A stretch of 64,000 nt of DNA, taken from Alphaproteobacteria bacterium. GTDB lineage: Bacteria > Pseudomonadota > Alphaproteobacteria > UBA2966. Shown here piece by piece: positions 1,390-57,223 of this stretch. The stretch covers positions 13,362-77,361 of the forward strand of contig JABIFY010000103.1 in the NCBI GenBank assembly GCA_018650465.1, given 5' to 3'. The stretch's first letter is position 1. Every line of letters starts with the position of its first letter. Both the position numbers and the translations under genes were made by a program. The notes below the pieces were generated by a model. It was not told the DNA's origin. It saw nothing but the letters and a program-made list of their open reading frames with translations, and did no database searches.

Positions 1390-1733
1390 GACGCACTCTC
1401 TCCGTTGCCGCCATCATTCTCACTGCCCTGATGTCCTATGGGCTTTATAATATGAAGTACGAGGTCCGCCGCCTGGAAAGTCGTCTTGCAGAACTACAGC
1501 AGACACTGACGTCCGGACGCCAGGCGGTCAAGGTTTTGCACGCCGAGTGGGCTTACCTTAACCGCCCGGCACGCTTGCAGGATCTCAGTGGCCGCCACCT
1601 TGATTTGCAGCCCGTCCAGGTTGGTCAATTGACCGGTCTGCATGAACTGCCGGTTCGCAGTGAAGAGCCTGGCCAAAAGTTAGCCCAAAAATCGGCGATG
1701 TTGTTGCCAACGGCGGGAGGCAAAACACAATGA
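1386..1733 (+). CDS. ftsL: Cell division protein FtsL (small bitopic membrane protein)
   Basis: 115-aa ORF with one N-terminal TM helix and coiled-coil, 4-nt overlaps with rsmH and ftsI; position between rsmH and ftsI. Confidence 0.7.
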   Translation: MRRTLSVAAIILTALMSYGLYNMKYEVRRLESRLAELQQTLTSGRQAVKVLHAEWAYLNRPARLQDLSGRHLDLQPVQVGQLTGLHELPVRSEEPGQKLAQKSAMLLPTAGGKTQ

Positions 1734-3466: not shown

Positions 3467-3470
3467 GACC

Positions 3471-4925: not shown

Positions 4926-6343
4926 TGCCAGCTGATTCCATCTGGACAAAGAACGAAGCCTGTGTCGCCACCGGTGGTCAATGCGAAATGAACTGGGTTG
5001 CCCAGGGTGTTTCCATCGACAGCCGTACGGTTGCCTGGGGCGATTTGTTCATTGCCCTGGTGGGTCCCAATATGGATGGTCACAAGTTTTTGGCCCAGGC
5101 CTTTAAACGCGGTGCCGTGGCCGCTGTTGTTTCGCAGATTCCGGAAGATGCCGATTCTTCCTGGCCTTTGCTGATGGTCGATGATACTCAAACCGCCCTT
5201 GAAGGGCTTGGTGTCTTTGCCCGCGACCGGGTCGGCGCCCATATCTGTGCCGTCACTGGCAGTGTCGGCAAGACCGGCACCAAGGAAGCCCTGCGTCAGA
5301 CCCTGGAACGCTCTGGCTCCACCCACGCCAGTGTTGCCAGTTACAACAATCTTTGGGGTGTGCCGTTGTCGCTGGCACGGATGCCGCGTGATGCGGCCTA
5401 TGCCATCTTTGAGATCGGCATGAACCATGCCGGAGAGATTTCTCCCCTCAGCCGTATGGTGCGCCCGCATGTGGTTATCGTCACAACGGTTGAAGCCACA
5501 CATCTTGAGTATTTTGACGGTGTCGAAGGCATCGCCGACGCCAAGGCCGAAGTCTTTGACGGCCTGGAGCCAGGTGGTGTCGCGATCCTGAACAAGGACA
5601 ACGACCAGTTTGATCGTCTGCAAAAGGCCGCTTTGAGTCACGGCGCCCGCGTGGTTTCCTTTGGCGAAAACACGATTGCAGATGTGCATCTGGATCGCCT
5701 CGCCCTGCATCCAAACTGTTCTTGTGTATCGGCCCATATTGGCGAGACACAGGCGACTTACAAAATCGGCATGCCGGGTCATCACTGGGCCACAAACAGC
5801 CTGGCTGTTTTGGCTGCCGTCGATGCCTTGGGCGCAGACATCGGCTTGGCCACCATGGCCCTGGCCGCGATGACCGCACCCGACGGACGCGGACGGCGTC
5901 ACCGTATCACGATGCCAAACGGGGCCTTTGACCTGATTGACGACAGCTATAATGCCTCGCCGGTTTCCATGCGCGCTGCCTTGCACGTTCTGGCCGGTGC
6001 CACGGTGCTGACCGGCGGGCGGCGTATCGCGGTGCTGGGCGAGATGAAAGAACTGGGGCCAACAGCTGCCCATATGCACACCGAACTGGCTGCTGATGTC
6101 GAGGCCGCAGAAATTGATCTGGTGATTACCTCGGGCGAGATGATGCAGGGCTTGCATGATGCTCTGCCAGGAAACATGCGCAGCGGCCATTGCGACAATT
6201 CGGTTGACGCTGCGGATAAGGCGGTTGATGCGATCCGGCCAGGTGACGTCATCCTGGTGAAGGGGTCGCTGGCCAGTGGTATGGCACGTGTTGTCGAAGG
6301 GTTGTTGGCGCTGGAAGCCGCACCCCGTGTTGTGAACGGGTAG
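4925..6343 (+). CDS. murF: UDP-N-acetylmuramoyl-tripeptide--D-alanyl-D-alanine ligase MurF
   Basis: ATG overlaps murE TGA (1 nt); [11 protein letters not shown]-loop; synteny. Confidence 0.9.
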
Positions 6344-6350
6344 GGCCGGT

Positions 6351-7436
6351 ATGTTTCTTTATCTATTTCAATATGCTGATCAGTTCCCGGTCCTGAACTT
6401 GTTCCGTTATCTGACTTTTCGGGCGGGTGGTGCAGTAATGACAGCCCTGTTGGTGGCTTTCGTCTTTGGCCCCATGGTGATCCGCTGGTTGAAATCAAAA
6501 CAAACCAACGGCCAGCCGATCCGGGATTGTGGACCCCAAAGCCACATCGTTAAAAAGCAGGGGACGCCAACCATGGGCGGCTTTCTGATCTTGCTGGCCC
6601 TGACGCTTGCAACCTTGTTGTGGGCTGATCTGAATAACCCTTACGTCTGGGCTGTGATGATGGTCACCCTGGGTTTCGGCGTTATTGGCTTTGCCGACGA
6701 CTATCAAAAAGTCACCCAGTCCAATCACCGCGGTGTGTCCGGCAAACTTAAACTGATGCTGGAAATTGCCGTCGCCGGTCTGGCCGCCTGGTGGATTTAT
6801 ACTGTAACACCGCAGCCGCTGTCCGGTGGCCTGGCTATTCCATTCCTCAAAGACCTGCTGGTGCCCCTGGGTTGGCTGGCAATACCGTTTGCCATTTTCG
6901 TCATGTTGGGCGCCTCCAATTCTGTCAACCTGACGGACGGCCTGGATGGTTTGGCCATTGTGCCGGTGATCATTGCCGCAGGCACGTTCGGCTTCATCGC
7001 TTACCTGGTTGGCAACTCGGTCTTCGCCAATTACCTGCAACTGCATGCCGTGCCCGGTGCTGGCGAGCTGGTGGTTATTTGCGGTGCCCTGGTGGGTGCC
7101 GGCCTCGGTTTTCTCTGGTTCAACGCGCCCCCGGCCATGATTTTCATGGGCGACACAGGCAGCCTGGCCCTGGGCGGAACCCTGGGTGCCATCAGTGTTG
7201 TTATCAAACATGAACTGGTGCTGGCCATTGTCGGTGGTTTGTTCGTTCTGGAAACAGTTTCGGTCATCGTTCAGGTCGCGTCTTTCAAACTGACCGGCAA
7301 GCGCGTCTTCCGCATGGCGCCGCTACACCACCATTTCGAGGAAAAGGGTTGGGCCGAAAGCACCGTCGTGATTCGCTTCTGGATTATCGCCGTCATCCTG
7401 GCCCTGGTCGGCCTGGCAACGTTGAAGTTGAGGTAG
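6351..7436 (+). CDS. mraY: Phospho-N-acetylmuramoyl-pentapeptide transferase MraY
   Basis: 361 aa, 10 TM, conserved [13 protein letters not shown] and HHHFE motifs. Confidence 0.93.
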
Positions 7437-7440
7437 GGGA

Positions 7441-8889
7441 ATGATCGAAGTCACCACCTTCGCCAATGCCCATGTGGCTGTTTTTGGACTGGGACGTTCC
7501 GGTCTGGCGACAGTGCATGCGCTGAAGGCAGGCGGGGCCGAGGTTTGCGCCTGGGACGACAGCCCGGAACGCCGTGACGAAGCTGCCGACGCAGGGATTG
7601 ATCTGGCTGATCTTTACAGTGCGGACTGGAAAAAAATGGCGGCCCTGATCCTCAGCCCTGGTGTGCCGCTAACTCACCCTGAGCCGCATTGGGTCGTGCG
7701 CATGGCGCGTGCCGAGGCTTGCGAAGTCATCGGCGATGTTGAACTTTTTGCCCGCGAAAAATTACCGAACCAGATTGCGGCCATTACCGGCACCAACGGC
7801 AAGTCTACCACCACGGCCTTGACCGGTCATGTGCTGGAAAGTTGCGGACGCCCAGTGGCGACCGGTGGTAATCTCGGCACCCCGGTTCTGGAATTGCCGC
7901 GCCTGCCCGATGGTGGCGTCTATGTCATCGAAATGTCGTCTTACCAAATTGATCTAACACCTTCACTTGACCCTGACGTGGCCGTCTTGCTGAACCTTAG
8001 CCCCGATCACATTGACCGGCATGGTGACATGGCGGGTTATATCGGTGTGAAAAGCGGCATGCTGGAGCGCCAGTCTGCAGATAAAACAGCTATCGTCGGC
8101 ATGGACGACAAGGATAGTGTCGGTATTTTTGACAAACTGAACAGCACTGGCCGCAAAAATATTGTGCCGGTTTCAGTGACGACACCGCCCAATGAACGCG
8201 CCCGACAGCAAGGTTATGTTGTTGAGGATGGAGTGATCTCCAGCCAATTAGACGGCAAGTCTGAAGCGCTGGTGGATCTCTTCGGTGCGGCTAATCTGAT
8301 CGGCGTTCACAATTGGCAAAATGCGGCAATGGCCCTGGCATCGGCGACGGCACTTGGCTGTCCGGTCTACGACGCCGCAGCGTCATTGCTCAGCTTTCCG
8401 GGTCTTGCCCATCGCATGGAATATGTGGGCCGCATTGGCAACATTCGCTTTATCAATGACAGCAAGGCGACCAACGCCGAAGCCACATCCCGCGCCCTTG
8501 CCTGTTTTGACCGCATCATCTGGATTGCAGGTGGGCGCCCCAAAGAAGGCGGTATCGAAGCCTTGCGCCCTGAATTCCATCGCATTGCCTATGCTTATCT
8601 TATTGGTGAAGCGGCTGGCGATTTTGCCCAAACCCTGGAAGGTGAAGTGCCTTTCACGATTGCCGAAACCCTTGATGAAGCAGTCGCGCTGGCCGCAGAA
8701 CGGGCGACGGAAGAAGCGGCCTGCCTGGGCGGGGACGCCATGCCGGATACGGCGGTGTTGTTGTCACCGGCAGCAGCCTCCTTTGATCAATTCGCAAATT
8801 TTGAACTTCGCGGCAACCGTTTTCGGGATTTGGTGGCGGGTCTGTCTTTGTTGCATCGTGACGAGATTGCAGTTGGGGGCCGGGTATGA
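7441..8889 (+). CDS. murD: UDP-N-acetylmuramoylalanine--D-glutamate ligase MurD
   Basis: 482 aa; GTNGKSTT P-loop; synteny. Confidence 0.92.
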   Translation: MIEVTTFANAHVAVFGLGRSGLATVHALKAGGAEVCAWDDSPERRDEAADAGIDLADLYSADWKKMAALILSPGVPLTHPEPHWVVRMARAEACEVIGDVELFAREKLPNQIAAITGTNGKSTTTALTGHVLESCGRPVATGGNLGTPVLELPRLPDGGVYVIEMSSYQIDLTPSLDPDVAVLLNLSPDHIDRHGDMAGYIGVKSGMLERQSADKTAIVGMDDKDSVGIFDKLNSTGRKNIVPVSVTTPPNERARQQGYVVEDGVISSQLDGKSEALVDLFGAANLIGVHNWQNAAMALASATALGCPVYDAAASLLSFPGLAHRMEYVGRIGNIRFINDSKATNAEATSRALACFDRIIWIAGGRPKEGGIEALRPEFHRIAYAYLIGEAAGDFAQTLEGEVPFTIAETLDEAVALAAERATEEAACLGGDAMPDTAVLLSPAAASFDQFANFELRGNRFRDLVAGLSLLHRDEIAVGGRV

Positions 8890-10010
8890 TTGGTCCCGCG
8901 CGCACAGATACTTCACTTGTCGGCCGCTGGTGGTGGACGGTTGATCGCTGGTCACTTGTCGCCCTCGGCGCTTTGCTGGCAGCAGGTGCCTTGTTGGTTA
9001 TGGCCGCTAGTCCGGCTGTGGCCGAACGCATTGGTCTGGATAGTTTTCACTTTGTCCGTCGCCAGGTTGTCTATCTTGTCCCGGCGATCGGTGTGATGAT
9101 TTTGGTCTCGCTATCGTCACCCTTGACTGTGCGTCGCCTGGCGACCATTGGCTTTGCCGTGACAATTGCGCTGATGATCCTGACCTTGCTGGTGGGCAAT
9201 GAAGTCAAAGGGGCGCAGCGCTGGTTATCTCTTGCCGGATTTGTCATCCAGCCCTCGGAATTTATCAAACCGTTCTTTGCAGTCGTGGCCGCCTGGATGT
9301 TTGCCGAGCAACAGCGTGGTGAAGGTTTTCCCGGCTATCTGGTTTCCACCTTGATGATGGCGGTTGTCTGCACCTTGCTGGTCATGCAGCCGGACTTTGG
9401 CATGACAGTTGTTGTTGCCGCCGTCTGGTTCACGCAATTCTTCATGGCTGGCATGCCCATGACCTGGATCATTGTTATGGGTTTTGCCGGGATCGCCGGT
9501 TTGGCCGCGGCCTATGCCTTATTGCCCCACGTGGCCAGCCGCATTGATCGTTTTCTTGATCCTTCCAGCGGCGACAGCTTCCAGGTTGATACAGCTCTGT
9601 CTGCTTTCCGCACCGGTGGTTTGACCGGACGGGGGCCCGGAGAAGGGACCGTCAAAGGTATTTTGCCCGACGCTCACACAGATTTTATTTTTGCCGTCGC
9701 CGGAGAAGAATTTGGCCTGATCGCTTGCCTGGTTCTGGTGGCCTTGTTTGCTTTTGTCGTCTTGCGTGGCTTCAGCCGCATGCTGATGGAACGTAACGCC
9801 TTTGTCATGCTGGCTGCCGCTGGCTTGCTGGTGCAGTTCGGCATTCAGGCCTTTGTAAACATGGGCGTAAATCTTCGTTTGCTGCCTGCCAAAGGCATGA
9901 CGCTACCCTTTGTCTCATACGGTGGCTCATCCTTGCTGGCGCTGGCCATCGGCATGGGCATGGTTCTGGCTCTGACCCGCAAACGTCCAGGTTCGGGGTT
10001 AGTTGGATGA
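8886..10010 (+). CDS. ftsW: Peptidoglycan glycosyltransferase FtsW (SEDS family)
   Basis: 374 aa polytopic membrane protein, 4-nt overlap with murD and murG; synteny. Confidence 0.9.
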   Translation: MIGPARTDTSLVGRWWWTVDRWSLVALGALLAAGALLVMAASPAVAERIGLDSFHFVRRQVVYLVPAIGVMILVSLSSPLTVRRLATIGFAVTIALMILTLLVGNEVKGAQRWLSLAGFVIQPSEFIKPFFAVVAAWMFAEQQRGEGFPGYLVSTLMMAVVCTLLVMQPDFGMTVVVAAVWFTQFFMAGMPMTWIIVMGFAGIAGLAAAYALLPHVASRIDRFLDPSSGDSFQVDTALSAFRTGGLTGRGPGEGTVKGILPDAHTDFIFAVAGEEFGLIACLVLVALFAFVVLRGFSRMLMERNAFVMLAAAGLLVQFGIQAFVNMGVNLRLLPAKGMTLPFVSYGGSSLLALAIGMGMVLALTRKRPGSGLVG

Positions 10011-11176
10011 CCTCAATCAATCAAACAGGTCCTGTGATTCTTGCCGCGGGTGGCACCGGTGGACACCTCTTTCCGGCAGAAGCCCTGGCGGGTGAACTGA
10101 TGGCGCGGGGTCGCGACGTCATGTTGGTGACGGATACGCGCGGTGATACTCACACGGCATCTGTCGATAGCCCCCTGGCCCGCATTGAACGCTTTGTTGT
10201 GCGGGCAGGCACCGTTTCAGGGCAGTCCGCTTTTGGTAAAATCAAGGGTTTGATCGAACTGGTTGCGGGGTTCTGGCAAGCCAGGGCTTTGCTGGCCCGA
10301 TTGCAGCCTTCAGTTGTTGTTGGCTTTGGTGGTTATCCATCCTTGCCCACCATGTTGGCCGCCACCCGACGCGGCACACCAGCCATCTTGCACGAACAAA
10401 ATGCCGTTCTGGGGCGGGTCAATCGCGTGCTGGCACCGCGTGTGAATGCTATTGCCGTGGCCTTTACCGATACGGCCAAACTGGAACCAGGTGATTTCGC
10501 CAAGGTCAAGGTCGTAGGTAATCCGGTGCGGGCCGCTGTGCGGGCAGTTCGCGGAAAACCCTATCCAGTACCTGAAGTCGGCGGCGCTTTTAATATTCTG
10601 GTATTGGGTGGCAGTCAGGGGGCAACCGTGTTGTCCGATGTTGTGCCCGTCGCCTTAAGCCAGTTGCCGGACGAGTTGAAACACCGCTTGCATATTACCC
10701 AGCAATGTCGGCCGGAAGATCTCGACCGGGTTCGCCAAATCTACGCCGAAGCCGGATTGCAAACCGACCTTGCAACATTTTTTGATGATGTGCCGGCCCG
10801 CCTGGCTGAAACCCATTTGATTGTGTCCCGCGCAGGCGCATCGACAGTAAGTGAAGCTGCCGTGGCCGGGCGTCCGGCCCTGTTGGTGCCTTATCCGCAC
10901 GCAACCGATGATCATCAAACCGGCAACGCAAAAGCCTTTGTGGAGCCAGGCGCTGGCTGGATGGCCCCACAGCAGTCTTTCACCAAACAATTTGTTGCCG
11001 ACACCATAACCGATCTGATGGCTCATCCTGAAAAATTGACAGATGCCGCCGCCAGTGCACTGAACGTTGGTCGGGCAGATTCTGCTCCACGTCTGGCTGA
11101 TCTGGTTGAAAGCCTGATCCGTGAAGGCAATGGCGCAAACGGTGGCAGTTCTTCACCTCAGGAGGAAGCCGCATGA
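10007..11176 (+). CDS. murG: UDP-GlcNAc:undecaprenyl-PP-MurNAc-pentapeptide GlcNAc transferase MurG
   Basis: 389 aa; N-terminal GGTGGHLFP motif; synteny. Confidence 0.92.
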
Positions 11177-12624
11177 GACAGCTACCTCTTGATATTGGTG
11201 TGATCCACTTCGTTGGTATCGGTGGCATCGGCATGAGCGGCATCGCCGAGGTTATGCATAACCTTGGTTATAAGGTTCAAGGCTCGGACCAGTCGGAAAG
11301 TGCCAATGTTTTGCGCCTGCGCGACAAGGGCATCAATGTGCTCATTGGCCATGAGGCAGAACACGTCGTGGACGCCCGTGTTGTGGTGATTTCCACGGCT
11401 GTGAAGTCGGACAATCCAGAAGTGCGGGCGGCACGCGAACGTTTAATTCCTGTTGTTCGCCGGGCAGAAATGCTGGCCGAACTGATGCGCCTGAAGTGGT
11501 GCATTGCCGTGGGCGGCACCCATGGCAAAACAACGACCACTTCCATGTTGGCAACTTTGCTGGATACAGCCGACTTTGACCCGACAGTGATCAATGGCGG
11601 CATCATCAACGCCTACGGCACCAATGCCCGTTTGGGCGATGGTGACTGGATGGTGGTAGAAGCTGACGAAAGCGACGGTACCTTTGTGCGCTTGCCAGCC
11701 GTCATTGCTGTGGTCACCAATATGGACCCCGAGCATCTTGATTTTTACGGTGATTTTGACACCGAGCGTAAAGCTTTTGAGGCCTTTGTCGAAAATGTGC
11801 CGTTCTATGGTGCCGCTGTCATGTGCATCGATCATCCGGAAGTCCAGTCCATGGTCGGGCGCATTTCTGACCGCCGCATTGTTACCTACGGCGAAAGCCC
11901 GCAGGCAGATATCCGGGCAATCAATGTAACTTATTCGACGGGCGGATCGAATTTTGATGTGGTCGAAACGGATCGCGCTACGGGCGATGTCGAAACCATT
12001 AGCGGATTGCGTTTGCCCATGCCGGGCATTCACAACGTCCTGAATTCTCTCGTGACCTTTTGCGTGGCCCGCGAAATGGGCATCGACAGTGAAGTTGTTC
12101 GCAAGGCCCTGGCCGGATTCGAAGGCGTCAAGCGCCGCTTTACCCGCACAGGCGAAGCCGGTGGTATTACGGTCATTGATGATTACGCCCACCACCCGGT
12201 TGAAATTTCTGCGGTGCTGGCTGCCGCCCGACATGCCTATGAAGGCAAGGTCATCGCTGTGGTGCAACCCCACCGCTATTCGCGTTTGCAGGATTTGTTC
12301 AGTGAATTCTGCAACTGCTTCAATGATGCCGACACTGTCATTGTTGCCAATGTATTTGCCGCAGGAGAAGAGCCTCGGACAGGCTTTGACCGGGATGGCT
12401 TGGCAGAAGGCCTGCGCAGCCATGGTCACCGCCGCGTCCTGGTCATGGATGATGCGCTGGAACTTGCTGCCCTCGCGGCATCAGAGGCGGAAGCCGGTGA
12501 TCTGGTGGTTTGTCTGGGGGCTGGCAACATTACCGCCTGGGCCAATGCTTTGCCGCAGGAACTGGAAGATTATCTCGGCCATCACCCACAAGCGAAACAA
12601 CCGTCAGGGGAGGGGGCCGCATGA
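11173..12624 (+). CDS. murC: UDP-N-acetylmuramate--L-alanine ligase MurC
   Basis: 483 aa; [12 protein letters not shown]-loop; synteny. Confidence 0.92.
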
Positions 12625-13583
12625 TGGCAGCACATTCCTTCCCGACCGGTCTTATGGAACGCCTGCCACAGGTTCGCGGGCGCTATAATGAAAACGTCTC
12701 GTTGGCCGATGTGACCTGGTTCCGTGTGGGCGGTGCCGCCGAAGTGGTCTTCCGCCCTGCCGACAAGGACGACCTGGTTCACTTTTTGCAAAACAAACCG
12801 GCTGATGTGCCTGTCATGATAATGGGTGTGGGCTCCAACCTTTTGATCCGCGACGGTGGTCTGCCCGGCGTCGTTATTCGTCTGGGACGTGGCTTCGCCG
12901 GGGTCACAACTGATGGCGATACGGTGATCGCAGGTGCCGGTGCCCTGGATGTGAATGTCTCCCTGACGGCGGCAGACGCGTCCATCGGCGGGCTGGAATT
13001 CCTCAGTGGTATTCCGGGCACAATCGGTGGGGCCTTGCGCATGAATGCCGGGGCCTATGGTGCCGAGATGTCGGATGTCCTGATCAAAGCAGAAGCCGTA
13101 ACGCCCGAAGGTGAGCTCAAAATACTTGATCTCGCCCAGATGAAATTCGCCTATCGTCATTGCGGAATTGATGCAAGCTGGTTGTTCCTGTCGGCGACCT
13201 TACAGGGCAAGGGCGGGCAAAAGTCAGAGATACTGACCCGCATCGACGACATCAAATCTGCTCGTGAAGACACACAGCCTGTGCGCACCCGCACCGGCGG
13301 TTCTACCTTCGCCAATCCGTCTGATACAGACCTGAAGGCCTGGCAATTGATTGATCGGGCAGGCTGTCGTGGTTTGATCCGTGGCGGGGCCATGGTGTCA
13401 GAAAAGCACTGCAACTTCCTGATCAATACAGGTGCTGCCAGTGCAACTGACCTGGAAGGCCTGGGGGAAGAAGTTCGACGTCGGGTCCTGGAAGAATTTG
13501 GTGTCACCCTGCATTGGGAAATTCGCCGGGTTGGTCTTCATGTCGATGGTCTTTCGGAAGTCAATGACGGGAGGATCTCATGA
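12621..13583 (+). CDS. murB: UDP-N-acetylenolpyruvoylglucosamine reductase MurB
   Basis: ORF 12510..13583 trimmed to ATG 12621 (ATGA overlap with murC stop); FAD-binding PCMH domain; synteny. Confidence 0.88.
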
Positions 13584-14494
13584 AAAAACACGTCGCCGTC
13601 TTGATGGGTGGTTGGTCCGCCGAGCGTGAGGTTTCACTTGTCAGCGGGGCCGCTGTTGTCGAGGCCTTGCAGGAAAAAGATTATCGCGTATCTGCAATTG
13701 ATGTGGGCCACACGGTGGCAACAACCCTGGCCGACATGAAGCCGGACGTCTGTTTCAATGCCTTGCATGGTCGCTTCGGTGAAGATGGCTGCATTCAGGG
13801 TGTGCTGGAAACACTGGGCATTCCCTACACACATTCTGGCGTGCTGGCTTCGGCCATGGCCATGGACAAGCCCTTGGCCAAAAAACTTTATGACACGGTC
13901 GGTCTGCCCTGCGTCGAAGGCGGTGTCTTTCACCGCGACCAAATCCTGGCCGGTGATGTGATGACAGCCCCCTATGTCATCAAGCCGTTGAATGAAGGCT
14001 CGTCCGTTGGTGTCAAGATTGTCACCGGCGACGAAAACGAGTTGCCTTTTCAGTCTGAAGCCTGGCACTACGGATCAGAAGTTCTCGTGGAACGTTATGT
14101 TCCAGGTCGCGAAGTCCAGGTTGCCGTGCTGGATAACAAGGCCCTGGGGGCCATTGAAATTCGCCCGACAAAACAATTCTACGATTATGAAGCCAAATAT
14201 TCCGATGGCTTCGCCGAACATCTGATGCCGGCTCCTATCGACAAGGCGGTCTATGACGACGTCATGCAAATGGCCGAGACCGCCCATAAGGTTCTGGGCT
14301 GTCGCGGTGTCACACGCACAGACTTCCGCTATGACGATACAGCTGGTGAGCCTGGTAAATTGTTTATCCTGGAAACCAATACCCAACCCGGCATGACGCC
14401 CCTGTCACTGACACCTGAAATTGCCGCCCATCGCGGCATGGATTTTGGTCAATTGGTTGACTGGCTTGTGAAGGATGCATCATGCCAGCGATAA
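13580..14494 (+). CDS. ddl: D-alanine--D-alanine ligase Ddl
   Basis: 304 aa ATP-grasp; 4-nt overlap with murB; synteny. Confidence 0.92.
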   Translation: MKKHVAVLMGGWSAEREVSLVSGAAVVEALQEKDYRVSAIDVGHTVATTLADMKPDVCFNALHGRFGEDGCIQGVLETLGIPYTHSGVLASAMAMDKPLAKKLYDTVGLPCVEGGVFHRDQILAGDVMTAPYVIKPLNEGSSVGVKIVTGDENELPFQSEAWHYGSEVLVERYVPGREVQVAVLDNKALGAIEIRPTKQFYDYEAKYSDGFAEHLMPAPIDKAVYDDVMQMAETAHKVLGCRGVTRTDFRYDDTAGEPGKLFILETNTQPGMTPLSLTPEIAAHRGMDFGQLVDWLVKDASCQR

Positions 14495-15387
14495 AAAAAC
14501 CTTTGACCGCACCAAAGCGGGCCAGAAAATCACCAGTGAAAAAGTCAGCTGCGAAATCAACAGCCCGCCGCGCACCACGTCCGTTTCGCCAGTGGCTCTA
14601 TCGCCGCCGCCGGACCCTGTCACAGGGTGTTGCGGTTTTGGGTATTTTGGCGGGCCTTGGCTGGACTGGCTATTGGTCAATGGAAAATGACGTGCCTGCG
14701 CGGACAATGACCATGCTGGGCCAAGCCGTCGATGACGCCTCACATGCCGCCGGTTTGACGGTGAACGAAGTTGTCGTTGTCGGTCGCCATCGCACCTCGC
14801 GCAAAGATATTTCCCGGGCCCTGGGTGTCAAACGGGACGACCCCATTTTGGCACTGGATATGACCGGCGCACTTGAACGTCTGGAGGCTTTGGGCTGGGT
14901 GGATAGTGCCGACATTACCCGCCGCTTGCCAGGGGACGTGCATGTGCATCTGGTGGAGCGCAAACCCTTCGCCCTGTGGCAGCGCAACAAACATCTGGTT
15001 CTGATTGATCGTGACGGTGTAGCCATCACCGACAAAAAGCTGGGTCGTTTTGCCAGTCTGCCAACGGTCGTCGGACGGGACGCTCCGACCCATGTCGCTG
15101 ATCTGTTTGATGTTCTGGCAACCGAGCCTGAATTGTTCTCTCGCGTATCGGCGGCCGTACGGATTGCCGGGCGGCGCTGGGATATTCGCCTCGCCAACGA
15201 CATCGTTATTCGCCTGCCGGAAGACGGTGCCGCGCAAGGTTGGCGTCGTCTTGCGGTTCTGCAACGTGAACACGCCATTCTGGGCCGTGACCTCGCCGCC
15301 ATTGATTTACGGCTTGAGGATCGGCTGATCGTTCGACTGGGGGCCAAGGCAGCAAAGCTGCGCCGGGCACCTGGCAACAATACCTGA
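14482..15387 (+). CDS. ftsQ: Cell division protein FtsQ (POTRA domain, basic N-terminal tail, one TM)
   Basis: 301 aa; Lys/Arg-rich cytoplasmic N-terminus, single TM, POTRA-like region; 13-nt overlap with ddl; synteny. Confidence 0.8.
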   Translation: MPAIKKPLTAPKRARKSPVKKSAAKSTARRAPRPFRQWLYRRRRTLSQGVAVLGILAGLGWTGYWSMENDVPARTMTMLGQAVDDASHAAGLTVNEVVVVGRHRTSRKDISRALGVKRDDPILALDMTGALERLEALGWVDSADITRRLPGDVHVHLVERKPFALWQRNKHLVLIDRDGVAITDKKLGRFASLPTVVGRDAPTHVADLFDVLATEPELFSRVSAAVRIAGRRWDIRLANDIVIRLPEDGAAQGWRRLAVLQREHAILGRDLAAIDLRLEDRLIVRLGAKAAKLRRAPGNNT

Positions 15388-15436
15388 GGGGGCAAGTAGA
15401 TGCGCAATATGCAAAAAGATAATCGGGGCAACTTTC

Positions 15437-16705
15437 ATGGCTAATGCGGCACGCAACAGCACCCAGGGTGCGCCATTGAAAAACGGTTTGGTCGCGGCTC
15501 TCGATGTGGGCACAACCAAAACGGTTTGTTTCATTGGGCGTGTGGTCGGGGAAAACAAGGCCCGTGTGGTCGGTATTGGCCACCAGGTTTCGCGCGGTCT
15601 CAGGGCCGGGTCCGTGGCGGATATGGAAGCCGTTGAAAGCTCAGTGCGGGCCGCCGTCGATGCCGCAGAGCGTATGGCAGGCGAGCCCATCCACACTGCC
15701 TTTGTTAATGTCTCCTGCGGTGACCCGGCGTCACATACGGTGGGCGTCGATATCCCTGTCACGGGCAACGAAATAGATGACGCTGACGTGCGCCGGGTGC
15801 TGGATCAAGGCACGGCCCGCAGCGACAATGGCGAACGCGAAGTTATCCACGCCATACCTGTCACCTACACGGTTGACGGAACCTCGGGCATTCGCGACCC
15901 GCGCGGCATGTACGGCACCCAGCTGGGTGTGAATATGCATATTGTGACGGCCTCCGCCGGTCCGGTGCGCAATTTACACAGCTGCATCAAGCGCGGCCAT
16001 CTGGATGTGGCAGGCACAGTGGTTTCAAGCTATGCCGCCGGTTTGGCGACGCTTGTGGAAGATGAAAAAGACCTCGGTGTGACCCTGATTGATATGGGCG
16101 GTGGCACCACGTCAGTGGCAGTTTTTTATGACGGCAGCCTGGTCTTTGCCGACGTTGTGCCGCTGGGCGGACAACATGTCACCAATGATATTGCCCGCGG
16201 TTTAGCCACGCCAACCGGACATGCGGAACGTATGAAAACCCTTTATGGCAGCGCCATTGCCGGGCCTGCCGATGATCAGGAATTGATTGACGTGCCGCAG
16301 GTTGGCGAATCCGATCAGGCCGAACCTAATCATGTGCCACGGTCTGCTCTGATTGGCATTATCAAGCCCCGCGTTGAGGAAACTCTCGAGCTGGTGCGCG
16401 ACCGTCTTGCCCTCTCGGGCTATGACCGGGTCGCTGGTCGCCGGGTTGTGCTGACGGGCGGTGCCAGTCAGTTGCAGGGCGTACTGGAGTTATCGCGCCG
16501 GGTCCTCGACAAACAGGTTCGCATCGGCAAACCGATCCGCATTCAGGGTCTGGCCGAAGCCACCGGGGGACCGGCATTCGCAACTTGTGCCGGACTATTA
16601 AGTTATGGCGTGCAAGGGCTGGGCAACCAGCTTGAGCACGGCCAGTCACCAACATCAGCAGGTGGCCTGAGCAAGTTTGGCCGCTGGCTGAAGGAAAATT
16701 TTTAG
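15437..16705 (+). CDS. ftsA: Cell division protein FtsA (actin-like ATPase)
   Basis: 422 aa; VDVGTTKT phosphate-1 motif; synteny. Confidence 0.92.
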   Translation: MANAARNSTQGAPLKNGLVAALDVGTTKTVCFIGRVVGENKARVVGIGHQVSRGLRAGSVADMEAVESSVRAAVDAAERMAGEPIHTAFVNVSCGDPASHTVGVDIPVTGNEIDDADVRRVLDQGTARSDNGEREVIHAIPVTYTVDGTSGIRDPRGMYGTQLGVNMHIVTASAGPVRNLHSCIKRGHLDVAGTVVSSYAAGLATLVEDEKDLGVTLIDMGGGTTSVAVFYDGSLVFADVVPLGGQHVTNDIARGLATPTGHAERMKTLYGSAIAGPADDQELIDVPQVGESDQAEPNHVPRSALIGIIKPRVEETLELVRDRLALSGYDRVAGRRVVLTGGASQLQGVLELSRRVLDKQVRIGKPIRIQGLAEATGGPAFATCAGLLSYGVQGLGNQLEHGQSPTSAGGLSKFGRWLKENF

Positions 16706-16834
16706 TAAGTGTAAACAAGACAATACGTCACCGGAACAACCGGTGCTTCGATAGACAAGGAAGAAAATGACTATGAACAAATCAAGATCCGAAAACATAT
16801 TTGGAATTGATTCAACCAGATCAAATGGAGGCCA

Positions 16835-18685
16835 ATGATGTCCTTAAATCTGACTATGCCTGAAAGAACTGAACTCAAGCCACGGATCACCGTTATCGGT
16901 GTTGGTGGTGCCGGCGGCAACGCTGTGAACAACATGATCGGCGCGCATCTCGAAGGCGTCGAATATGTCGTTGCCAATACTGATTCCCAAGCCCTGGGCT
17001 TGTCCATGACGGACCGGACCATTCAGCTGGGTGCGAACCTGACACAAGGCCTTGGTGCTGGTGCCCGTCCGGAAGTCGGTGGTGCCGCTGCCGTGGAAGC
17101 CATGGACGAAATCATGGACCACATCCAGGGCAGCCACATGGTCTTTATCACAGCCGGTATGGGCGGTGGTACAGGCACGGGTGCAGCACCTGTGATGGCT
17201 GAGGCCGCACGCAGCGCCGGTATGCTGACCGTTGGCGTGGTTACCAAGCCGTTCCATTTTGAAGGCTCCAACCGCATGAAGATCGCGGAAGCCGGAATTA
17301 AGGAACTGCAAAATCATGTCGATACCCTGATTATCATTCCCAACCAGAACCTGTTCCGCGTTGCCAATGAAAAGACCACTTTTGCTGATGCCTTCGAAAT
17401 GGCTGATGATGTGCTCTATTCCGGTGTTCGCGGGGTCACGGACCTGATGGTCATGCCTGGCCTGATCAACCTGGATTTTGCTGACGTTCGCGCCATTATG
17501 GGCGAAATGGGCAAAGCCATGATGGGCACCGGTGAAGCCGAAGGAGAAAAGCGTGCTCTGGAAGCCGCAGAAGCCGCCATCGCCAATCCTTTGTTGGATG
17601 ATGTATCCATGAAAGGGGCCCGCGCTGTCCTGATCAATATCACCAGTGGCATGGACACAACCCTGTATGAAATCGACGAAGCTACCAATCGCATTCGGGA
17701 CGAAGTCGACGTTGATGCCAACATCATCTTTGGCCAGACTTTCGACGAAGCTCTTGCTGGTCGCATGCGGGTATCCATTGTCGCCACCGGCATAGATGCC
17801 GATGGCCTTTCAATGCCATCGCCGAAATTGCAGGTTGTCGGCGGGGCCGATGCAACAGCCCGTGCCGGTTTTCCGGATACAACACGAACGACGACGGATA
17901 TGCCCGCCATGCCCGCATCAATGGCAACAAGTCCATCAGCAACATCTGCCCCCCCCATGGCCAATATGACATCCATGGCGGGATCTTATGGCGCAACCGC
18001 CGGGGCGCTTGCCCTGGATGTGAGCCAGCCTGAATTGGACATGCCGGAAATGACCCGGCCTGCTGTAGCGGAACCAGAAGTGGTTCAACCGGAATTGAAG
18101 ATAAGCCCTGTTGTTGAAGACAGTGTACCGGTGCAGCCGGAAGCATCTGTTGAAACACAGAACGTGGTGGAAACGCCGACCGCGGTGGAACGGGTAAACA
18201 ACGCTGAACAATTGGACGATCGTGCCGAAGCAGACACGCCGTTCATTGCTCGTCCGGCTTTGACACCAAAGGCATCGATGGAAACAGCGATGCAACCAGC
18301 CCCAAAACCGGATGCTTTTGCTGAAGCTGCCCTGACCAATGGCGCAACAGTTGAAAACAAGCCAAAGCCCCCAAGCCTGCTGGAACGCATGACCGGCACA
18401 GGTCGTGCGCGTCAAAAAGCCCGTGAAGCTGAAGCCCAGGCGCAAGCCCAGACCCAGGTTCAGGAGCCAAGCTTTGGCCGTAGAGACCAGCCTGAGCCGG
18501 TCACAAATCCGGTTCAGCACGTCGCTGAGACAGAGGAATGGTCGGAAACGCCTGCCAAACCAGAACTTGCCGCGCCAAAAGCGACTTCGGCCATGCCGGC
18601 GATTGACCCGGCTGACCGTTTGGCCCCGGCCGCAGGAGACGATTTGCTGGACATTCCGGCATTTCTGCGACGCCAGGCTAATTAG
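16835..18685 (+). CDS. ftsZ: Cell division GTPase FtsZ with ~270-aa disordered C-terminal linker
   Basis: 616 aa; [10 protein letters not shown] tubulin signature; GGAGG RBS before ATGATG; C-terminal conserved peptide [11 protein letters not shown]. Confidence 0.95.
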
Positions 18686-51841: not shown

Positions 51842-52661
51842 TCCTGACGCCGACTTAGACGACGGATCCGATTTCACACGACTAATAAAAGTGCTTAACC
51901 GTGAGGAAAACATAGATGCGCTTTCGCCGTTGATCGCTGCGATTGGCGACGAGGCTGAAGAAATTGAATTTTCCAATACAGCTATTGGTATCGATACGAA
52001 TATCTTACTGAAGTTATCGAAAAGAAAAGAAGCTGAGGATGTTTTCGACTATTTGGGATCAAACCATCAGCCTCCATTGATACTACCAGGCCAAGCTGTT
52101 CAAGAATTTTGGAATAACCAGCTTAACGCGATCCAAACTCGAGCCGATAAGCTTGCTAGAAAATTTGAAGATTTCTCAGATGAACTGGATAAATTTGGCG
52201 AAGATTTTGGAGACTTTGCGCCAGTGATTAAAGAGAAATTGAATGTTTTCTCAGCGGAACATGGTCACATTTTTGATAAAGCGACAATTCACAAAACACT
52301 TAAGCTATTGGAAGTCTTAAAAGAAAAATCGTCAGTGCCATTTGTGCCTAGAAGCGCATTCAAGGAAATCGTAGAAATAAGGTTTAGCACCAAAACGCCA
52401 CCGGGATTTAAAGATGACGGAGACGGGGATTTTTTTATTTGGGCTGATTTCCTCTATGGCTTGAAGGCAGCACAATCAGAAGGAACGAATTTCACTCGGG
52501 CCGTTCTCGTAACTGATGACAAGAAACCTGATTGGAGCCGAAAGGGAAGGGCACATCCAATTCTTGTTTCGGAGGCACAGGCCTATTTAGGTGTGCCATT
52601 TGAGTTATGGTCGCAAGACAAACTAATAGCTGAAGTGGAAAAGTCCACGTCGAGTGAATAA
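51831..52661 (+). CDS. PIN-like domain protein (DUF4935-like), partner of the DUF262/DUF1524 gene
   Basis: ORF 51720..52661 trimmed to ATG 51831 (11-nt overlap with upstream gene); GIDTNILLKL and VLVTDDKK acidic PIN motifs flanking a helical insert; low GC. Confidence 0.62.
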   Translation: MAGSPDADLDDGSDFTRLIKVLNREENIDALSPLIAAIGDEAEEIEFSNTAIGIDTNILLKLSKRKEAEDVFDYLGSNHQPPLILPGQAVQEFWNNQLNAIQTRADKLARKFEDFSDELDKFGEDFGDFAPVIKEKLNVFSAEHGHIFDKATIHKTLKLLEVLKEKSSVPFVPRSAFKEIVEIRFSTKTPPGFKDDGDGDFFIWADFLYGLKAAQSEGTNFTRAVLVTDDKKPDWSRKGRAHPILVSEAQAYLGVPFELWSQDKLIAEVEKSTSSE

Positions 52662-52903
52662 CCCTTGACTAGTCTTATATTTATTCTTGGACAGGGCGAA
52701 ACCGAATGCAATTTCCTTTCCCCATTGTTTTCAAAATGTGTCCATGAACAAAACAAGGACCTAGCAGAATACACAGAATCTTTGAATTAGTTGGTTGTAG
52801 GGACACGATTCTTTTTCGAAGTGGAAAAAGTCATGTCCCCGTAATTCTGTGTAAAGGAACAGCAAAGACGTGGGTACTCGGGTCAAGCCCGAGCATGACG
52901 GGG

Positions 52904-53113
52904 TTATTGCTGTTCCAAAACCGTCTTCAAGACATAAACCCGGATAGCACTCGACAGATTTCCGTCGCGGGCCTCGTCGATTTGGGCGACGAGGTCGTTG
53001 AGGGCGCGGCCTTGTGATTTGGCGATCTGGCGCAGGGCGTTCCAGAATTCGTCTTCCAGGGTGACGCTGGTTTGGTGGCCGGCGATGTCGAGGGAATGTT
53101 TTTTCAGGGCCAT
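52904..53113 (-). CDS. Ribbon-helix-helix domain protein (RHH_4 family) commonly linked to class I fumarase
   Basis: 69 aa; HSLDIAGHQTSVTLEDEFWNALRQIA...NLSSAIRVYVL matches RHH_4 pattern; immediately downstream of fumA. Confidence 0.7.
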   Translation of the reverse strand: MALKKHSLDIAGHQTSVTLEDEFWNALRQIAKSQGRALNDLVAQIDEARDGNLSSAIRVYVLKTVLEQQ

Positions 53114-54986: not shown

Positions 54987-55523
54987 TTATTTCTTGCGAA
55001 AATGGTCGAGTTCGACAACGTCGGCAGAAACGAGGGCGGAGTCTTCATCAGGCTCGCTCATGTGCGACGCGTTATCGTCCTGGCCTGAGGACCCGTCAAA
55101 TTCCACGGACATGCCCGGGGTCGTCATGTTGGCATCTTCCATCTCGCCGTCTTCGACCGTTTTGAACTGCAAACCAAACTGCACACTGGGATCAGCAAAG
55201 CCGGTGATCGCCATCCATGGCACGTTGAGGAATTCGCGATTGTTGTTGAAACTGAGCATCACCGAAAAGCCGATATCGGTAATTTCCAGGTCCCAGAATT
55301 CATGCTGCAAAACGATGGTGATTTCTTCCGGATACCGGGCCCGCAAACTGTCGGGCATGATGACGCCGGGAAAACCCGAGAGGAAAGAAATATAAAAATG
55401 ATGCTCACCAGGCAGGCCATTTTCAGCCACACGTTCCAACGATTCGCGCACGACACCTTTCAGCGCCTGTTCGACGATCTCGTTATAGTTCATGTAGTCC
55501 GTGGATGTTGTGTCGTCAGTCAT
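54987..55523 (-). CDS. sspB: ClpXP adaptor SspB (stringent starvation protein B, alpha-proteobacterial type)
   Basis: 178 aa; conserved HHFYISF...EFWDL core, acidic C-terminal tail ending in basic ClpX-binding-like peptide. Confidence 0.8.
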   Translation of the reverse strand: MTDDTTSTDYMNYNEIVEQALKGVVRESLERVAENGLPGEHHFYISFLSGFPGVIMPDSLRARYPEEITIVLQHEFWDLEITDIGFSVMLSFNNNREFLNVPWMAITGFADPSVQFGLQFKTVEDGEMEDANMTTPGMSVEFDGSSGQDDNASHMSEPDEDSALVSADVVELDHFRKK

Positions 55524-55699
55524 GGAAACCCGATTGCGCGCCAGAGTGAATTAAAGCGATTTAAAGAAGCGTTGTCGAAGAAATGCCATATTAAAGAGCG
55601 GGGCGCTTGAGTCGACTCCGAATCTGTCAAAAAGGCGCAAAAAGAGGCGTCAAATGGACGTAGAACAGGCGCGGTTTGGGGGCTGAATGTCTTCCGAAT

Positions 55700-56075
55700 G
55701 CTTGGCAAATGCTACTTGATTGTTCGGCAAATGCCACATAATAACGAGGAAAGTGAGGGGCTTCTGTTGCCAGGTGCCCCTCGAACCCCGTGGACTCAGC
55801 TGTTAAGCTGCGACCGCAAATGCTTGACGATTGTCATTTGCATTTGTAGTGATTGACCCGGTAACGGCGGAATCATGCCGAACGAAAAATATACTTTTAC
55901 TGTGCACGTCGATCCTGTTTCGCCCCCATCAAATATAGATTCCAGAATTTAAATTACTGTTTGAATCCAACAGTTTGAATCTATATGTGGTGGAGGCGCC
56001 GGGTACCGCCCCCGGGTCCGCAACACCTATTCTGTAGACCGTTTATCGCCATAGTCGGTTGCCCGACGCCTTCTA
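55700..56075 (-). ncRNA. ssrA: Two-piece (circularly permuted) tmRNA gene ssrA: acceptor piece ending ...CGCCTCCACCA at 55988, 60-nt excised hairpin segment, coding piece starting GGGGGCG at 55927 with tag ORF 55841-55803 (ANDNRQAFAVAA-TAA); outer ends approximate (+/-30 nt)
   Basis: Tag reading frame GCA AAT GAC AAT CGT CAA GCA TTT GCG GTC GCA GCT TAA on minus strand; 5' GGGGGCG pairs with CGCCTCC (G3:U70) followed by ACCA; permuted order typical of alphaproteobacteria. Confidence 0.72.
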
Positions 56076-56266
56076 TATAGGGATTTTTGGCGGAAAATGG
56101 AAGGGAATTAGCGGGGTTCAGATTTCGCATTATTCCAATGAAAAACGAAACCGCGTTAATTTCAATAAATCCCGATTTAGACACAACATGTAGTGGCCAT
56201 GCCGGTACCGGCCCGCTATATTGTCCCTCCTTTCTGGATGATTTTTGTGCTGATACGAGGGTTCCC

Positions 56267-57223
56267 ATGGGTCTCAATTCCGAACAACTGGCTGAAATTG
56301 AAGAACAAAGGGCGCAATCTGTGCCCACCAGGCGGGCCGTCTCGCCGGGTATGGAAGAAATCCTTTATGAAGCCATTCCCATACTGGATCACGGCTTTGT
56401 TCGGGTCGTCGATTACATGGGTGATGACGCCGCCATCGTACAGGCAGCGCGGGTTTCCTATGGTCGCGGCACAAAAACCCTGAACAGCGACGCAGGCCTG
56501 GTAAACTATTTGTTGCGTCATCGCCACACCACGCCGTTCGAAATGTGTGAAGTTAAATACCACATCAAATTGCCGATCTTTGTGGCCCGACAGTGGATCC
56601 GCCATCGCACCGCAAACGTCAACGAATACTCGGCTCGCTATTCAATTTTGGATAACGAATTTTACATGCCGGCCAAGGAACACCTCGCAGCACAGTCCAC
56701 GGTAAACCACCAAGGCCGAGGCGATGTGCTGAGCGGTAAGGATTCCGACCGGGTCATGGATTTACTGCGCGAAGACTCTGAGCGGGCCTATGCTGGATAC
56801 GCCGATATGCTGAATGAAGATGCGGATGGTAATCCGGTCGATGACAGCCGCCAGGGCCTCGCGCGTGAGCTCGCCCGCATGAACTTGTCGCTGAATTTTT
56901 ATACCCAGTGGTACTGGAAAACCGACCTGCATAATCTGCTGCATTTCCTGAGTTTACGGGCCGACAGTCACGCGCAATATGAAATCCGGGTCTATGCTGA
57001 AGCCATGCTGGAGACCGTCAAAAAATGGGTGCCTGCGACTTATGGCGCGTTCATGGACTATCGCGTCGGCGGCACCAATATTTCCAAAAAAGGCATGGGT
57101 GTCGTCAAACGCCTGCTGGCGGGGGAACAGGTCGACCAGAAAGAAAGCGGTATGTCAGCCCGCGAATGGCGTGAACTGATGGAAACTCTGGAACGCCCGG
57201 AACACCAGAAAAACGAGAGCTGA
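56267..57223 (+). CDS. thyX: FAD-dependent thymidylate synthase ThyX
   Basis: ORF 56087..57223 trimmed to ATG 56267 (GAGGG RBS); ThyX motif RHRTTPFE...[19 protein letters not shown]. Confidence 0.9.

What the first reader, a model, noticed from the sequence alone, without database searches (positions are those of the whole stretch)
55700..56075. Two-piece (circularly permuted) tmRNA gene in the 740-nt thyX-sspB spacer, tag ANDNRQAFAVAA
Seen on the minus strand: a tag reading frame GCA AAT GAC AAT CGT CAA GCA TTT GCG GTC GCA GCT TAA (plus coordinates 55841-55803) encodes ANDNRQAFAVAA, an alphaproteobacterial-type proteolysis tag ending in AVAA. Upstream of it, GGGGGCGAAACAGGATCGACG (5' end at 55927) resembles the 5' acceptor strand and following region of tmRNA. 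Further upstream, ...CCGGG-GGCGGTA-CCCGG-CGCCTCC-ACCA ends at 55988. GGGGGCG pairs with CGCCTCC and includes a G3:U70 wobble, which is the alanine identity element. Between the CCA end and the GGGG start lies a 60-nt segment (55928-55987) built from nested palindromes (ATATAGATTC...GAATCTATAT; ACTGTT...AACAGT).

Established: alphaproteobacterial ssrA genes are circularly permuted, with the acceptor piece first, then an excised loop, then the coding piece, giving a two-piece tmRNA.

Notable: the T-loop here would be GGCGGTA rather than the canonical TTCGANT. The 115-aa ORF 55981..56328 predicted in this spacer is almost certainly not a gene.
Basis: partly seen in the sequence, partly recalled or inferred. 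Interest (0 to 1): 0.6.

Follow-up and report, generated by a model that had tools for sequence, protein, structure and literature searches.

The report
Ordinary two-piece tmRNA gene (ssrA)

Summary
Confirmed and ordinary. ARAGORN calls one permuted tmRNA at 55712..56080 (-) with tag ANDNRQAFAVAA*. Rfam RF01849 alpha_tmRNA matches its full model at 258 bits against a gathering score of 50. In 42 alphaproteobacterial tmRNA genes my structure is 90.7% paired versus 42-50% for slid controls. 30 of 59 pairs change on both sides and G3·U70 is invariant. Close relatives keep the mature pieces nearly identical while the intervening loop and flanks diverge. One relative has only synonymous tag-codon changes.

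Corrections:
- The T-loop GGCGGUA is the family consensus, so it is not notable.
- The 60-nt intervening segment lies within the 9-166 nt range of relatives.
- The coding piece is about 178 nt, not about 210. This lineage lacks one hairpin after the stop codon.

The flanks are SspB and ThyX, as stated. The 115-aa ORF is spurious.

Side observation: ssrA lies 300 nt or less upstream of sspB, on the same strand, in 56 of 80 alphaproteobacterial loci. Low interest; already known kind.

The parts
56075..56103 (-). Probable ssrA promoter: CTTCCA (56103-56098), 17-nt spacer, CTATAT (56080-56075). Transcription is inferred to start near 56069.
   Evidence: The block is conserved in L001 and L081, while the 6 nt between the -10 box and the first hairpin diverge. 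The -10 CTATAT is part of the RF01849 consensus and is conserved across 42 relatives. The resemblance to the alphaproteobacterial sigma-70 consensus CTTGAC-N17-CTATAT is from my own knowledge. It was not detected by the E. coli-type scan. The function is inferred.
55988..56069 (-). Acceptor piece, about 82 nt. It comprises the 5' hairpin GUCGG-GCAA-CCGAC (56067-56054), the 5' strands of connector helix P2 (56050-56019), the T arm (56015-55999, loop GGCGGUA), the acceptor 3' strand CGCCUCC (55998-55992, U70 = 55994), discriminator A (55991) and CCA (55990-55988).
   Evidence: Rfam alignment; ARAGORN 3' tRNA domain. Covariation: 5' hairpin 98% paired with 4 of 5 pairs changed on both sides; T arm invariant; acceptor stem 99%. 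Only 1 substitution against L001, L081 and L082. The 5' end is inferred from the promoter position and was not mapped.
55928..55987 (-). Intervening segment, 60 nt, absent from the mature RNA. Its outer stem AUAUAGAUUC/GAAUCUAUAU stacks on the acceptor stem, and an inner hairpin ACUGUU...AACAGU lies within it.
   Evidence: folds. The outer stem is kept with a compensatory U-A to C-G change in L001, L081 and L082, while the interior is replaced in each lineage. Length range in relatives is 9-166 nt. Excision itself is inferred from the family (PMC3985003, PMC11915505).
55750..55927 (-). Coding piece, about 178 nt. It comprises the acceptor 5' strand GGGGGCG (55927-55921, G3 = 55925), the P2 3' strands (55908-55881), pseudoknot PK1 (55880-55854), the tag frame (55841-55803), the stop-codon hairpin CAGCU-UAAC-AGCUG (55810-55797) and pseudoknot PK2 (55788-55755).
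   Evidence: Rfam; ARAGORN 5' tRNA domain and resume consensus. P2 85-99.5% paired; PK1 stems 94-95%; PK2 stems 97-98%, with G·U to C-G in 18 sequences and G-C to A-U in 14. The stop-codon hairpin could not be tested because the alignment register is poor there (33%). The 3' end is placed where conservation with L001, L081 and L082 stops, about 55747-55752, and was not mapped.
55803..55841 (-). Tag reading frame: resume codon GCA (55841-55839) through TAA (55805-55803), encoding ANDNRQAFAVAA.
   Evidence: The tag is identical in L001 and L081. L082 has two synonymous changes (GCA to GCC, GTC to GTT) and the same peptide.
54987..55523 (-). sspB, the adaptor for ssrA-tagged proteins, downstream on the same strand. 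A promoter-like block, GTCGAC (55616-55611), 17-nt spacer, TAATAT (55593-55588), lies in the gap.
   Evidence: PF04386, 140 bits. Linkage to ssrA is seen in 56 of 80 loci. The promoter-like block is conserved in L001, L081 and L082; its function is inferred.
56267..57223 (+). thyX, transcribed divergently from ssrA. It is a neighbour and not part of the tmRNA system.
   Evidence: PF02511, 190 bits. Promoter-like TGGCCA-17-TATATT at 56194-56222, conserved in L001.
55981..56328 (-). Spurious 115-aa ORF. It overlaps the acceptor piece, both promoters and the antisense of the thyX start.
   Evidence: No Pfam match. L001 has no ORF of 60 aa or more at the equivalent place. The alignment has 9- and 11-nt indels there. 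Gene callers did not call it in six public assemblies that share the identical spacer.

Best explanation
This is the functional chromosomal ssrA gene of an uncultured marine alphaproteobacterium, in the circularly permuted form typical of the class.

Inferred mechanism:
1. One precursor is transcribed from CTTCCA-N17-CTATAT, starting near 56069.
2. The precursor folds so that the acceptor 3' strand (ending in ACCA) and the acceptor 5' strand (GGGGGCG) pair across a 60-nt hairpin loop.
3. tRNA-processing enzymes remove that loop: RNase P at the 5' side of G1 (55927), and a 3' end-maturation activity after the CCA at 55988.
4. This leaves an acceptor piece of about 82 nt and a coding piece of about 178 nt. 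They are held together by the 7-bp acceptor stem and about 18 bp of connector helix P2.
5. AlaRS charges the CCA end with alanine, using the G3:U70 identity element.
6. With SmpB, the RNA enters stalled ribosomes. Translation resumes at GCA (55841) and appends ANDNRQAFAVAA.
7. SspB, encoded just downstream, and ClpXP then direct the tagged protein to degradation.

Shown here: the sequence, the fold, its covariation, and the conservation pattern. Inferred from the family: transcription, processing, charging and tagging.
For: - Detectors: ARAGORN permuted tmRNA. RF01849 at 258.2 bits (gathering score 50) with the full model matched, and RF04321 at 149.4 bits.
- Covariation: 59 pairs in 11 helices are 90.7% paired in 42 sequences, against 41.7-50.4% for slid controls. 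30 pairs change on both sides, 0 of 500 shuffles reach the observed values, and G3·U70 is present in 42 of 42.
- Conservation pattern: the mature pieces have 1 and 4 differences from L001, all compatible with the structure, while the intervening loop, the transcription-start region and the 3' flank diverge.
- Tag: in L082 only synonymous changes occur.
- Population: the spacer is 100% identical in six independent assemblies.
- Context: housekeeping genes with synteny conserved in L001 and L083-L088. No viral contig carries this tag.
- Precursor core fold: z = -4.9.
- Family properties come from PMC3985003 and PMC11915505.
Against: There is no expression or processing data. The ends of both pieces are inferred from conservation, not mapped. 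smpB and a possible second ssrA elsewhere in the genome were not examined, because only 64 kb is available. The stop-codon hairpin could not be tested by covariation. One P2 pair is a C-U mismatch (flagged).
Confidence: 0.97

Rival explanations
1. It is a decayed or redundant ssrA copy, and the working gene lies elsewhere in the genome.
For: Only 64 kb of the genome could be examined. Compared with the RF01849 consensus, this copy lacks a hairpin after the stop codon.
Against: The full model is matched and every testable helix is intact. The missing hairpin is also absent in other lineages (L001, L025, L061, L065), so it is a natural variant and not decay. The mature segments are under strong purifying selection relative to the loop and flanks, and tag changes are synonymous only. 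The gene sits at the position upstream of sspB that 56 of 80 alphaproteobacterial loci share.
Confidence: 0.02
2. It is a tmRNA carried by a phage or genomic island, like the two-piece tmRNAs seen in marine phages.
For: Two-piece tmRNAs do occur in marine phages (PMC9004378).
Against: The flanks are fumarase, sspB, thyX and a purine nucleoside phosphorylase-family gene (PNP), in the same order in relatives. No viral contig encodes this tag. No integrase or direct repeat of the gene end was seen nearby, although I did not search for these systematically.
Confidence: 0.01
3. The spacer encodes the 115-aa protein (55981..56328, minus strand), and the RNA signals are incidental.
For: An open frame of 115 codons with a GTG start exists.
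Against: There is no family match. The frame is not conserved in L001. It was not called in six assemblies with the identical sequence. It overlaps a 258-bit RNA match and the antisense of the thyX start.
Confidence: 0.01

Closest known systems
Alphaproteobacterial two-piece tmRNA (Rfam RF01849 alpha_tmRNA; prototype Caulobacter crescentus ssrA, Keiler, Shapiro & Williams 2000)
   Same: The gene order is permuted in the same way: acceptor piece, intervening segment, coding piece. It has the 7-bp acceptor stem with G3:U70, the T-loop GGC(G/A)GUA, connector helix P2, PK1 before the resume codon, a tag of the form ANDN...AA, and a terminal pseudoknot PK2 (PMC3985003).
   Different: It lacks the hairpin between the stop codon and PK2 that the RF01849 consensus and most relatives have. 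The tag sequence ANDNRQAFAVAA is not in ARAGORN's built-in list ('Tag not identified'). The intervening segment is AT-rich and 60 nt, against a median of 31 nt. These are ordinary within-family differences.
Merged permuted tmRNA family (Rfam RF04321 tmRNA_permuted; Alphaproteobacteria, Betaproteobacteria and Cyanobacteria)
   Same: The tRNA-like domain and tag region match at 149.4 bits against a gathering score of 47.
   Different: RF04321 models only the shared tRNA-domain pairs (PMC11915505). The alpha-specific model fits much better.
Standard one-piece tmRNA (Rfam tmRNA; E. coli ssrA)
   Same: The function and core elements are the same: a tRNA-like domain charged with alanine, a resume codon, a tag ending in AA, and a stop codon in a hairpin loop.
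   Different: The gene is circularly permuted, the mature RNA is in two pieces, there are two pseudoknots rather than four, and the T-loop is not the tRNA-type UUCGAAU.

Membership tests
Alphaproteobacterial two-piece tmRNA (RF01849) | Covariance-model score at or above the curated gathering score | tested here: met
   258.2 bits against 50, E = 6.4e-74, model positions 1-355 of 355, not truncated.
Alphaproteobacterial two-piece tmRNA (RF01849) | Circularly permuted gene order: T arm and acceptor 3' strand with CCA, then an intervening segment, then the acceptor 5' strand and tag frame | tested here: met
   ARAGORN reports 'Permuted', with the 3' tRNA domain upstream of the 5' tRNA domain. CCA is at 55990-55988, G1 at 55927 and the tag at 55841-55803.
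Alphaproteobacterial two-piece tmRNA (RF01849) | 7-bp acceptor stem with a G3:U70 wobble (alanine identity) and a discriminator A | tested here: met
   GGGGGCG pairs with CGCCUCC, with G55925 opposite U55994 and A55991 as discriminator. G·U is invariant in 42 of 42 relatives.
Alphaproteobacterial two-piece tmRNA (RF01849) | T arm with the family's T-loop | tested here: met
   CCGGG-GGCGGUA-CCCGG equals the model consensus. The stem is invariant and all 42 sequences have a GGC(G/A)G(U/C)(A/G) loop, nearly all GGC(G/A)GUA.
Alphaproteobacterial two-piece tmRNA (RF01849) | Connector helix P2 formed between the two pieces | tested here: met
   18 pairs in three segments are 85-99.5% paired across 42 sequences, and 13 of them change on both sides. 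The window has one C-U mismatch.
Alphaproteobacterial two-piece tmRNA (RF01849) | Pseudoknot PK1 just upstream of the resume codon and pseudoknot PK2 after the tag | tested here: met
   PK1 stems are 94% and 95% paired; PK2 stems are 97.6% and 96.7% paired, with compensatory changes. The PK1 plus PK2 architecture is as described in PMC3985003.
Alphaproteobacterial two-piece tmRNA (RF01849) | Short tag frame starting at an alanine resume codon and ending in hydrophobic ...AA plus a stop codon | tested here: met
   GCA...GCT TAA encodes ANDNRQAFAVAA*. Relatives share ANDN...(L/V/A)AA. Changes in L082 are synonymous only.
Alphaproteobacterial two-piece tmRNA (RF01849) | The precursor is actually cut into two stable RNAs, charged with alanine, and used in trans-translation with SmpB | not testable with these tools
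   No transcript or biochemical data are available. This is inferred from the family (PMC3985003, PMC11915505).
Alphaproteobacterial two-piece tmRNA (RF01849) | smpB is present in the same genome | not tested
   Only the 64-kb window and short loci were available, and I did not search the window's ORFs for SmpB.
SspB adaptor (Pfam PF04386), for the downstream gene | Profile match above the gathering score over the full domain | tested here: met
   140 bits against 27, residues 16-170 on profile positions 2-155 of 156. Binding to this tag was not tested.

The most novel reading that the evidence does not exclude
In many Alphaproteobacteria, ssrA and sspB may form one transcription unit. The tmRNA gene sits directly upstream of its adaptor gene on the same strand, with gaps as short as 15-47 nt and usually no terminator-like hairpin. 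If so, sspB mRNA would be made by read-through of the tmRNA precursor, or from a promoter inside ssrA, and released by the same processing that matures the tmRNA. That would couple the supply of tag and adaptor. In this window's lineage the gap is about 225 nt and holds a conserved promoter-like block, so the coupling may be looser here.
Probability: 0.25. Interest if true: 0.35.

Novelty: already known. Interest (0 to 1): 0.1.

Why it matters
It matters mainly for annotation. The spacer should be labelled ssrA (two-piece tmRNA) and the overlapping 115-aa ORF dropped. The locus adds nothing new to tmRNA biology.

It does give a clean example of how an excised spacer evolves: the outer stem is kept and the interior replaced. 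It also shows a naturally shortened coding piece with one hairpin fewer. The one point that might repay follow-up is the widespread ssrA-sspB tandem arrangement, which suggests co-regulation of the tagging RNA and its proteolytic adaptor.

Tried and rejected
- **Is the T-loop GGCGGUA unusual?** Rejected. It is the RF01849 consensus, and all 42 relatives have a GGC(G/A)G(U/C)(A/G) loop, nearly all GGC(G/A)GUA.
- **Is the 60-nt intervening segment unusual, or does it hold another element?** Rejected. Relatives range from 9 to 166 nt. Within the segment there is no Rfam hit above gathering score and no tRNA.
- **Is the tmRNA phage-borne?** No viral contig carries the tag, and the context is housekeeping genes.
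- **E. coli-type promoter and terminator scan of the spacer.** It returned only the thyX-side promoter and no terminator. The ssrA and sspB promoters were therefore inferred from conservation instead.
- **Covariation test of the stop-codon hairpin.** It failed because MAFFT does not keep its register across relatives (33% paired). This is inconclusive, not negative.
- **Primary papers.** I tried to read Keiler 2000, Sharkady & Williams 2004 and Lessner 2007. None is held, so I used reviews (PMC3985003, PMC11915505) and marked the rest as my own knowledge.
- **Literature on ssrA-sspB linkage.** The searches found nothing. That does not prove novelty.

Full report
**Observation.**
- T arm: CCGGG-GGCGGTA-CCCGG at 56015-55999.
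- Acceptor 3' strand: CGCCTCC at 55998-55992, then discriminator A at 55991 and CCA at 55990-55988.
- Intervening segment: 60 nt, 55987-55928.
- Acceptor 5' strand: GGGGGCG at 55927-55921.
- Tag frame: GCA...GCT TAA at 55841-55803, encoding ANDNRQAFAVAA.

G3 (55925) lies opposite U70 (55994). The palindromes in the intervening segment are real. That segment folds at -13 kcal/mol with z = -2.9. With the T arm and acceptor stem included, the precursor core folds as one coaxial stack at -40.8 kcal/mol with z = -4.9. Pfam confirms the flanking genes as SspB (PF04386, 140 bits) and ThyX (PF02511, 190 bits).

**Identity.** ARAGORN finds exactly one tRNA-like gene in the 64-kb window. It is a permuted tmRNA at 55712..56080 (-) with tag ANDNRQAFAVAA*. 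Rfam gives RF01849 alpha_tmRNA at 258.2 bits against a gathering score of 50, E = 6e-74, with model positions 1-355 fully matched at 55752..56106. The merged permuted model RF04321 scores 149.4 bits.

**Relatives.** I used the SspB protein to fetch 80 loci from one-genome-per-species bacterial genomes.
- The closest is an Alphaproteobacteria MAG from a marine series (L001, 85% SspB identity). All other hits are at or below about 60%, so the lineage is thinly sampled at species level.
- The exact SspB protein nevertheless occurs in about 70 blocks of public assemblies. The whole 744-nt spacer query is 100% identical in six of these, including three NCBI MAGs. The organism is therefore a recurrent environmental population.
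- A degenerate search for the tag's coding sequence found two more metagenomic relatives (L081, L082) and no viral contig.

**Structure test.** I aligned 42 alphaproteobacterial tmRNA genes and projected onto them a structure written from the window. The structure comprised the 5' hairpin, three P2 segments, the T arm, the acceptor stem, both PK1 stems, the stop-codon hairpin and both PK2 stems.
- 90.7% of cells form standard pairs, against 41.7-50.4% when partners are slid by 1-3 columns.
- 30 of 59 pairs change on both sides, and no shuffle out of 500 reaches any observed measure.
- The G3·U70 wobble is present in 42 of 42 sequences, and the T stem is invariant.
- PK1 stem 2 switches A-U to G-C in 17 sequences. 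PK2 stem 1 switches G·U to C-G in 18.
- Only the stop-codon hairpin (CAGCU-UAAC-AGCUG, 55810-55797) could not be assessed, because the alignment loses register there (33% paired).
- The architecture of a coding piece with PK1 and PK2 around the tag, plus an acceptor piece, is the one described for two-piece tmRNA (PMC3985003).

**Boundaries from conservation.** I compared the window with L001, L081 and L082.
- The acceptor piece from the 5' hairpin to CCA has one substitution.
- The coding piece from G1 to ...CACUUUCCU has four differences from L001. All are structure-compatible, for example G·U to G-C in P2 and G-C to G·U in PK1.
- By contrast, three stretches have diverged or been replaced: the 6 nt between the -10 box and the first hairpin, the interior of the intervening segment, and everything after about 55747.
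- From this I place the transcription start near 56069 and the coding-piece 3' end near 55750. ARAGORN's end at 55712 overshoots.
- The inferred pieces are about 82 nt and about 178 nt.
- The intervening segment keeps only its outer stem, with a compensatory U-A to C-G change. That fits a spacer whose only job is to hold the two acceptor strands together until it is cut out.
- L082 has two substitutions in the tag codons, both synonymous. This is evidence that the frame is translated.

1. The T-loop GGCGGUA is the RF01849 consensus, and all 42 relatives have a GGC(G/A)G(U/C)(A/G) loop, nearly all GGC(G/A)GUA. It differs from tRNA but is normal for this family.
2. The intervening segment ranges from 9 to 166 nt in 63 relatives, with a median of 31. 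The tmRNA database paper reports far longer ones (PMC11915505). Sixty nucleotides is unremarkable.
3. The coding piece is shorter than the Caulobacter-based expectation. This lineage, like L025, L061 and L065, lacks the hairpin that the model has at positions of about 270-315, between the stop codon and PK2.

**The 115-aa ORF (55981..56328, -).** It is not a gene.
- It has no family match.
- L001 has no ORF of 60 aa or more at the equivalent position.
- The alignment there has 9- and 11-nt indels.
- Gene callers skipped it in six assemblies that share the identical spacer.
- It runs through the acceptor piece, two promoters and the antisense of the thyX start.

**Mechanism (inferred from the family).**
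1. A precursor is made from a promoter that reads CTTCCA-N17-CTATAT (56103-56075). This resembles the alphaproteobacterial sigma-70 consensus (own knowledge). It is conserved in L001 and L081, and its -10 box is conserved across the 42 relatives.
2. The precursor folds, and RNase P cuts 5' of G55927.
3. A 3'-end activity trims to CCA at 55988. PMC3985003 says this is 'probably' tRNase Z.
4. The two pieces stay paired through the acceptor stem and P2.
5. AlaRS charges the RNA by way of G3:U70.
6. With SmpB, the RNA rescues stalled ribosomes and appends ANDNRQAFAVAA.
7. The SspB encoded next door, together with ClpXP, then degrades the tagged product.

None of these steps was observed here.

**Rivals.**
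- *Decayed or redundant copy.* This is unlikely given the full-length model match, the purifying selection and the conserved genomic position. A second copy elsewhere cannot be excluded from 64 kb.
- *Phage or island origin.* This is unlikely given the housekeeping synteny and no viral hit.

**Side observation.** ssrA lies within 2.5 kb upstream of sspB in 63 of 80 loci. In 56 of these the gap is 300 nt or less, on the same strand. Some gaps are only 15-47 nt, and only 12 of the 56 contain anything terminator-like in a crude scan. I found no description of this linkage in the papers I could search, but the key paper (Lessner et al. 2007) is not held. In the window's own lineage a conserved GTCGAC-N17-TAATAT block (55616-55588) suggests that sspB has its own promoter.

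**Verdict.** The finding is correct and well observed, but the object is a routine member of a well-described family that standard annotation tools detect. Interest is low.

Noticed in passing
window 54987-55927 (-); loci L001-L080: ssrA sits directly upstream of sspB on the same strand in 56 of 80 alphaproteobacterial loci (gap 300 nt or less, some only 15-47 nt). Few of these gaps hold a terminator-like hairpin. This suggests a conserved tag-plus-adaptor unit and possibly co-transcription. I did not find it described in the papers I could search.
   Followed up: partly
L002:2007-2485, L003:2010-2472, L021:2016-2486: Three Rhodospirillaceae-like MAGs have 149-166-nt tmRNA intervening segments that share a long conserved hairpin. 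It has 49 predicted pairs, 13 of them with compensatory change among just three sequences. No Rfam family matches it.
   Followed up: partly
L032:1987-2349, L044:2051-2429: Two relatives encode 22-residue tags with a duplicated ANDN motif (ANDNVAFVAANDNAVVAVRAAA and ANDNVALVAANDNNVVAVRAAA). That is about twice the usual tag length.
   Followed up: no
L006, L008, L014, L019, L047 (acceptor 3' ends, alignment A2 columns 101-110): Several relatives do not encode the terminal CCA (CCACTCA or CCACCC instead of CCACCA), so CCA would have to be added after transcription there. The window does encode CCA.
   Followed up: no
window 55747-55802 (-), compared with RF01849 model positions about 270-315: The window, L001, L081, L082, L025, L061 and L065 lack the hairpin that most alphaproteobacterial tmRNAs have between the stop codon and the last pseudoknot. 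This gives a coding piece about 30-45 nt shorter.
   Followed up: partly
window 56194-56266 (+): The region upstream of thyX has a promoter-like TGGCCA-17-TATATT. Its leader contains CCCTCC, which could pair with the Shine-Dalgarno GAGGG. Both motifs are conserved in L001, so this may be a translational control hairpin.
   Followed up: no
window 55588-55616 (-): A conserved GTCGAC-N17-TAATAT block lies between the tmRNA 3' end and sspB, and it is shared with L001, L081 and L082. It is a likely independent sspB promoter.
   Followed up: partly
L083:5417-6537 and L084-L086 (downstream of fumarase; equivalent to window about 51900-53100): Public gene calls place a small ribbon-helix-helix protein (PF13467) next to a PIN-domain protein (PF18476/PF16289) just beyond the fumarase gene. 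This may be a toxin-antitoxin-like pair.
   Followed up: no
window 1730-18685 (+): A long run of same-strand ORFs looks, by layout, like a dcw (mur/fts) cell-division cluster. That is consistent with ordinary chromosomal context. I did not check it with family searches.
   Followed up: no
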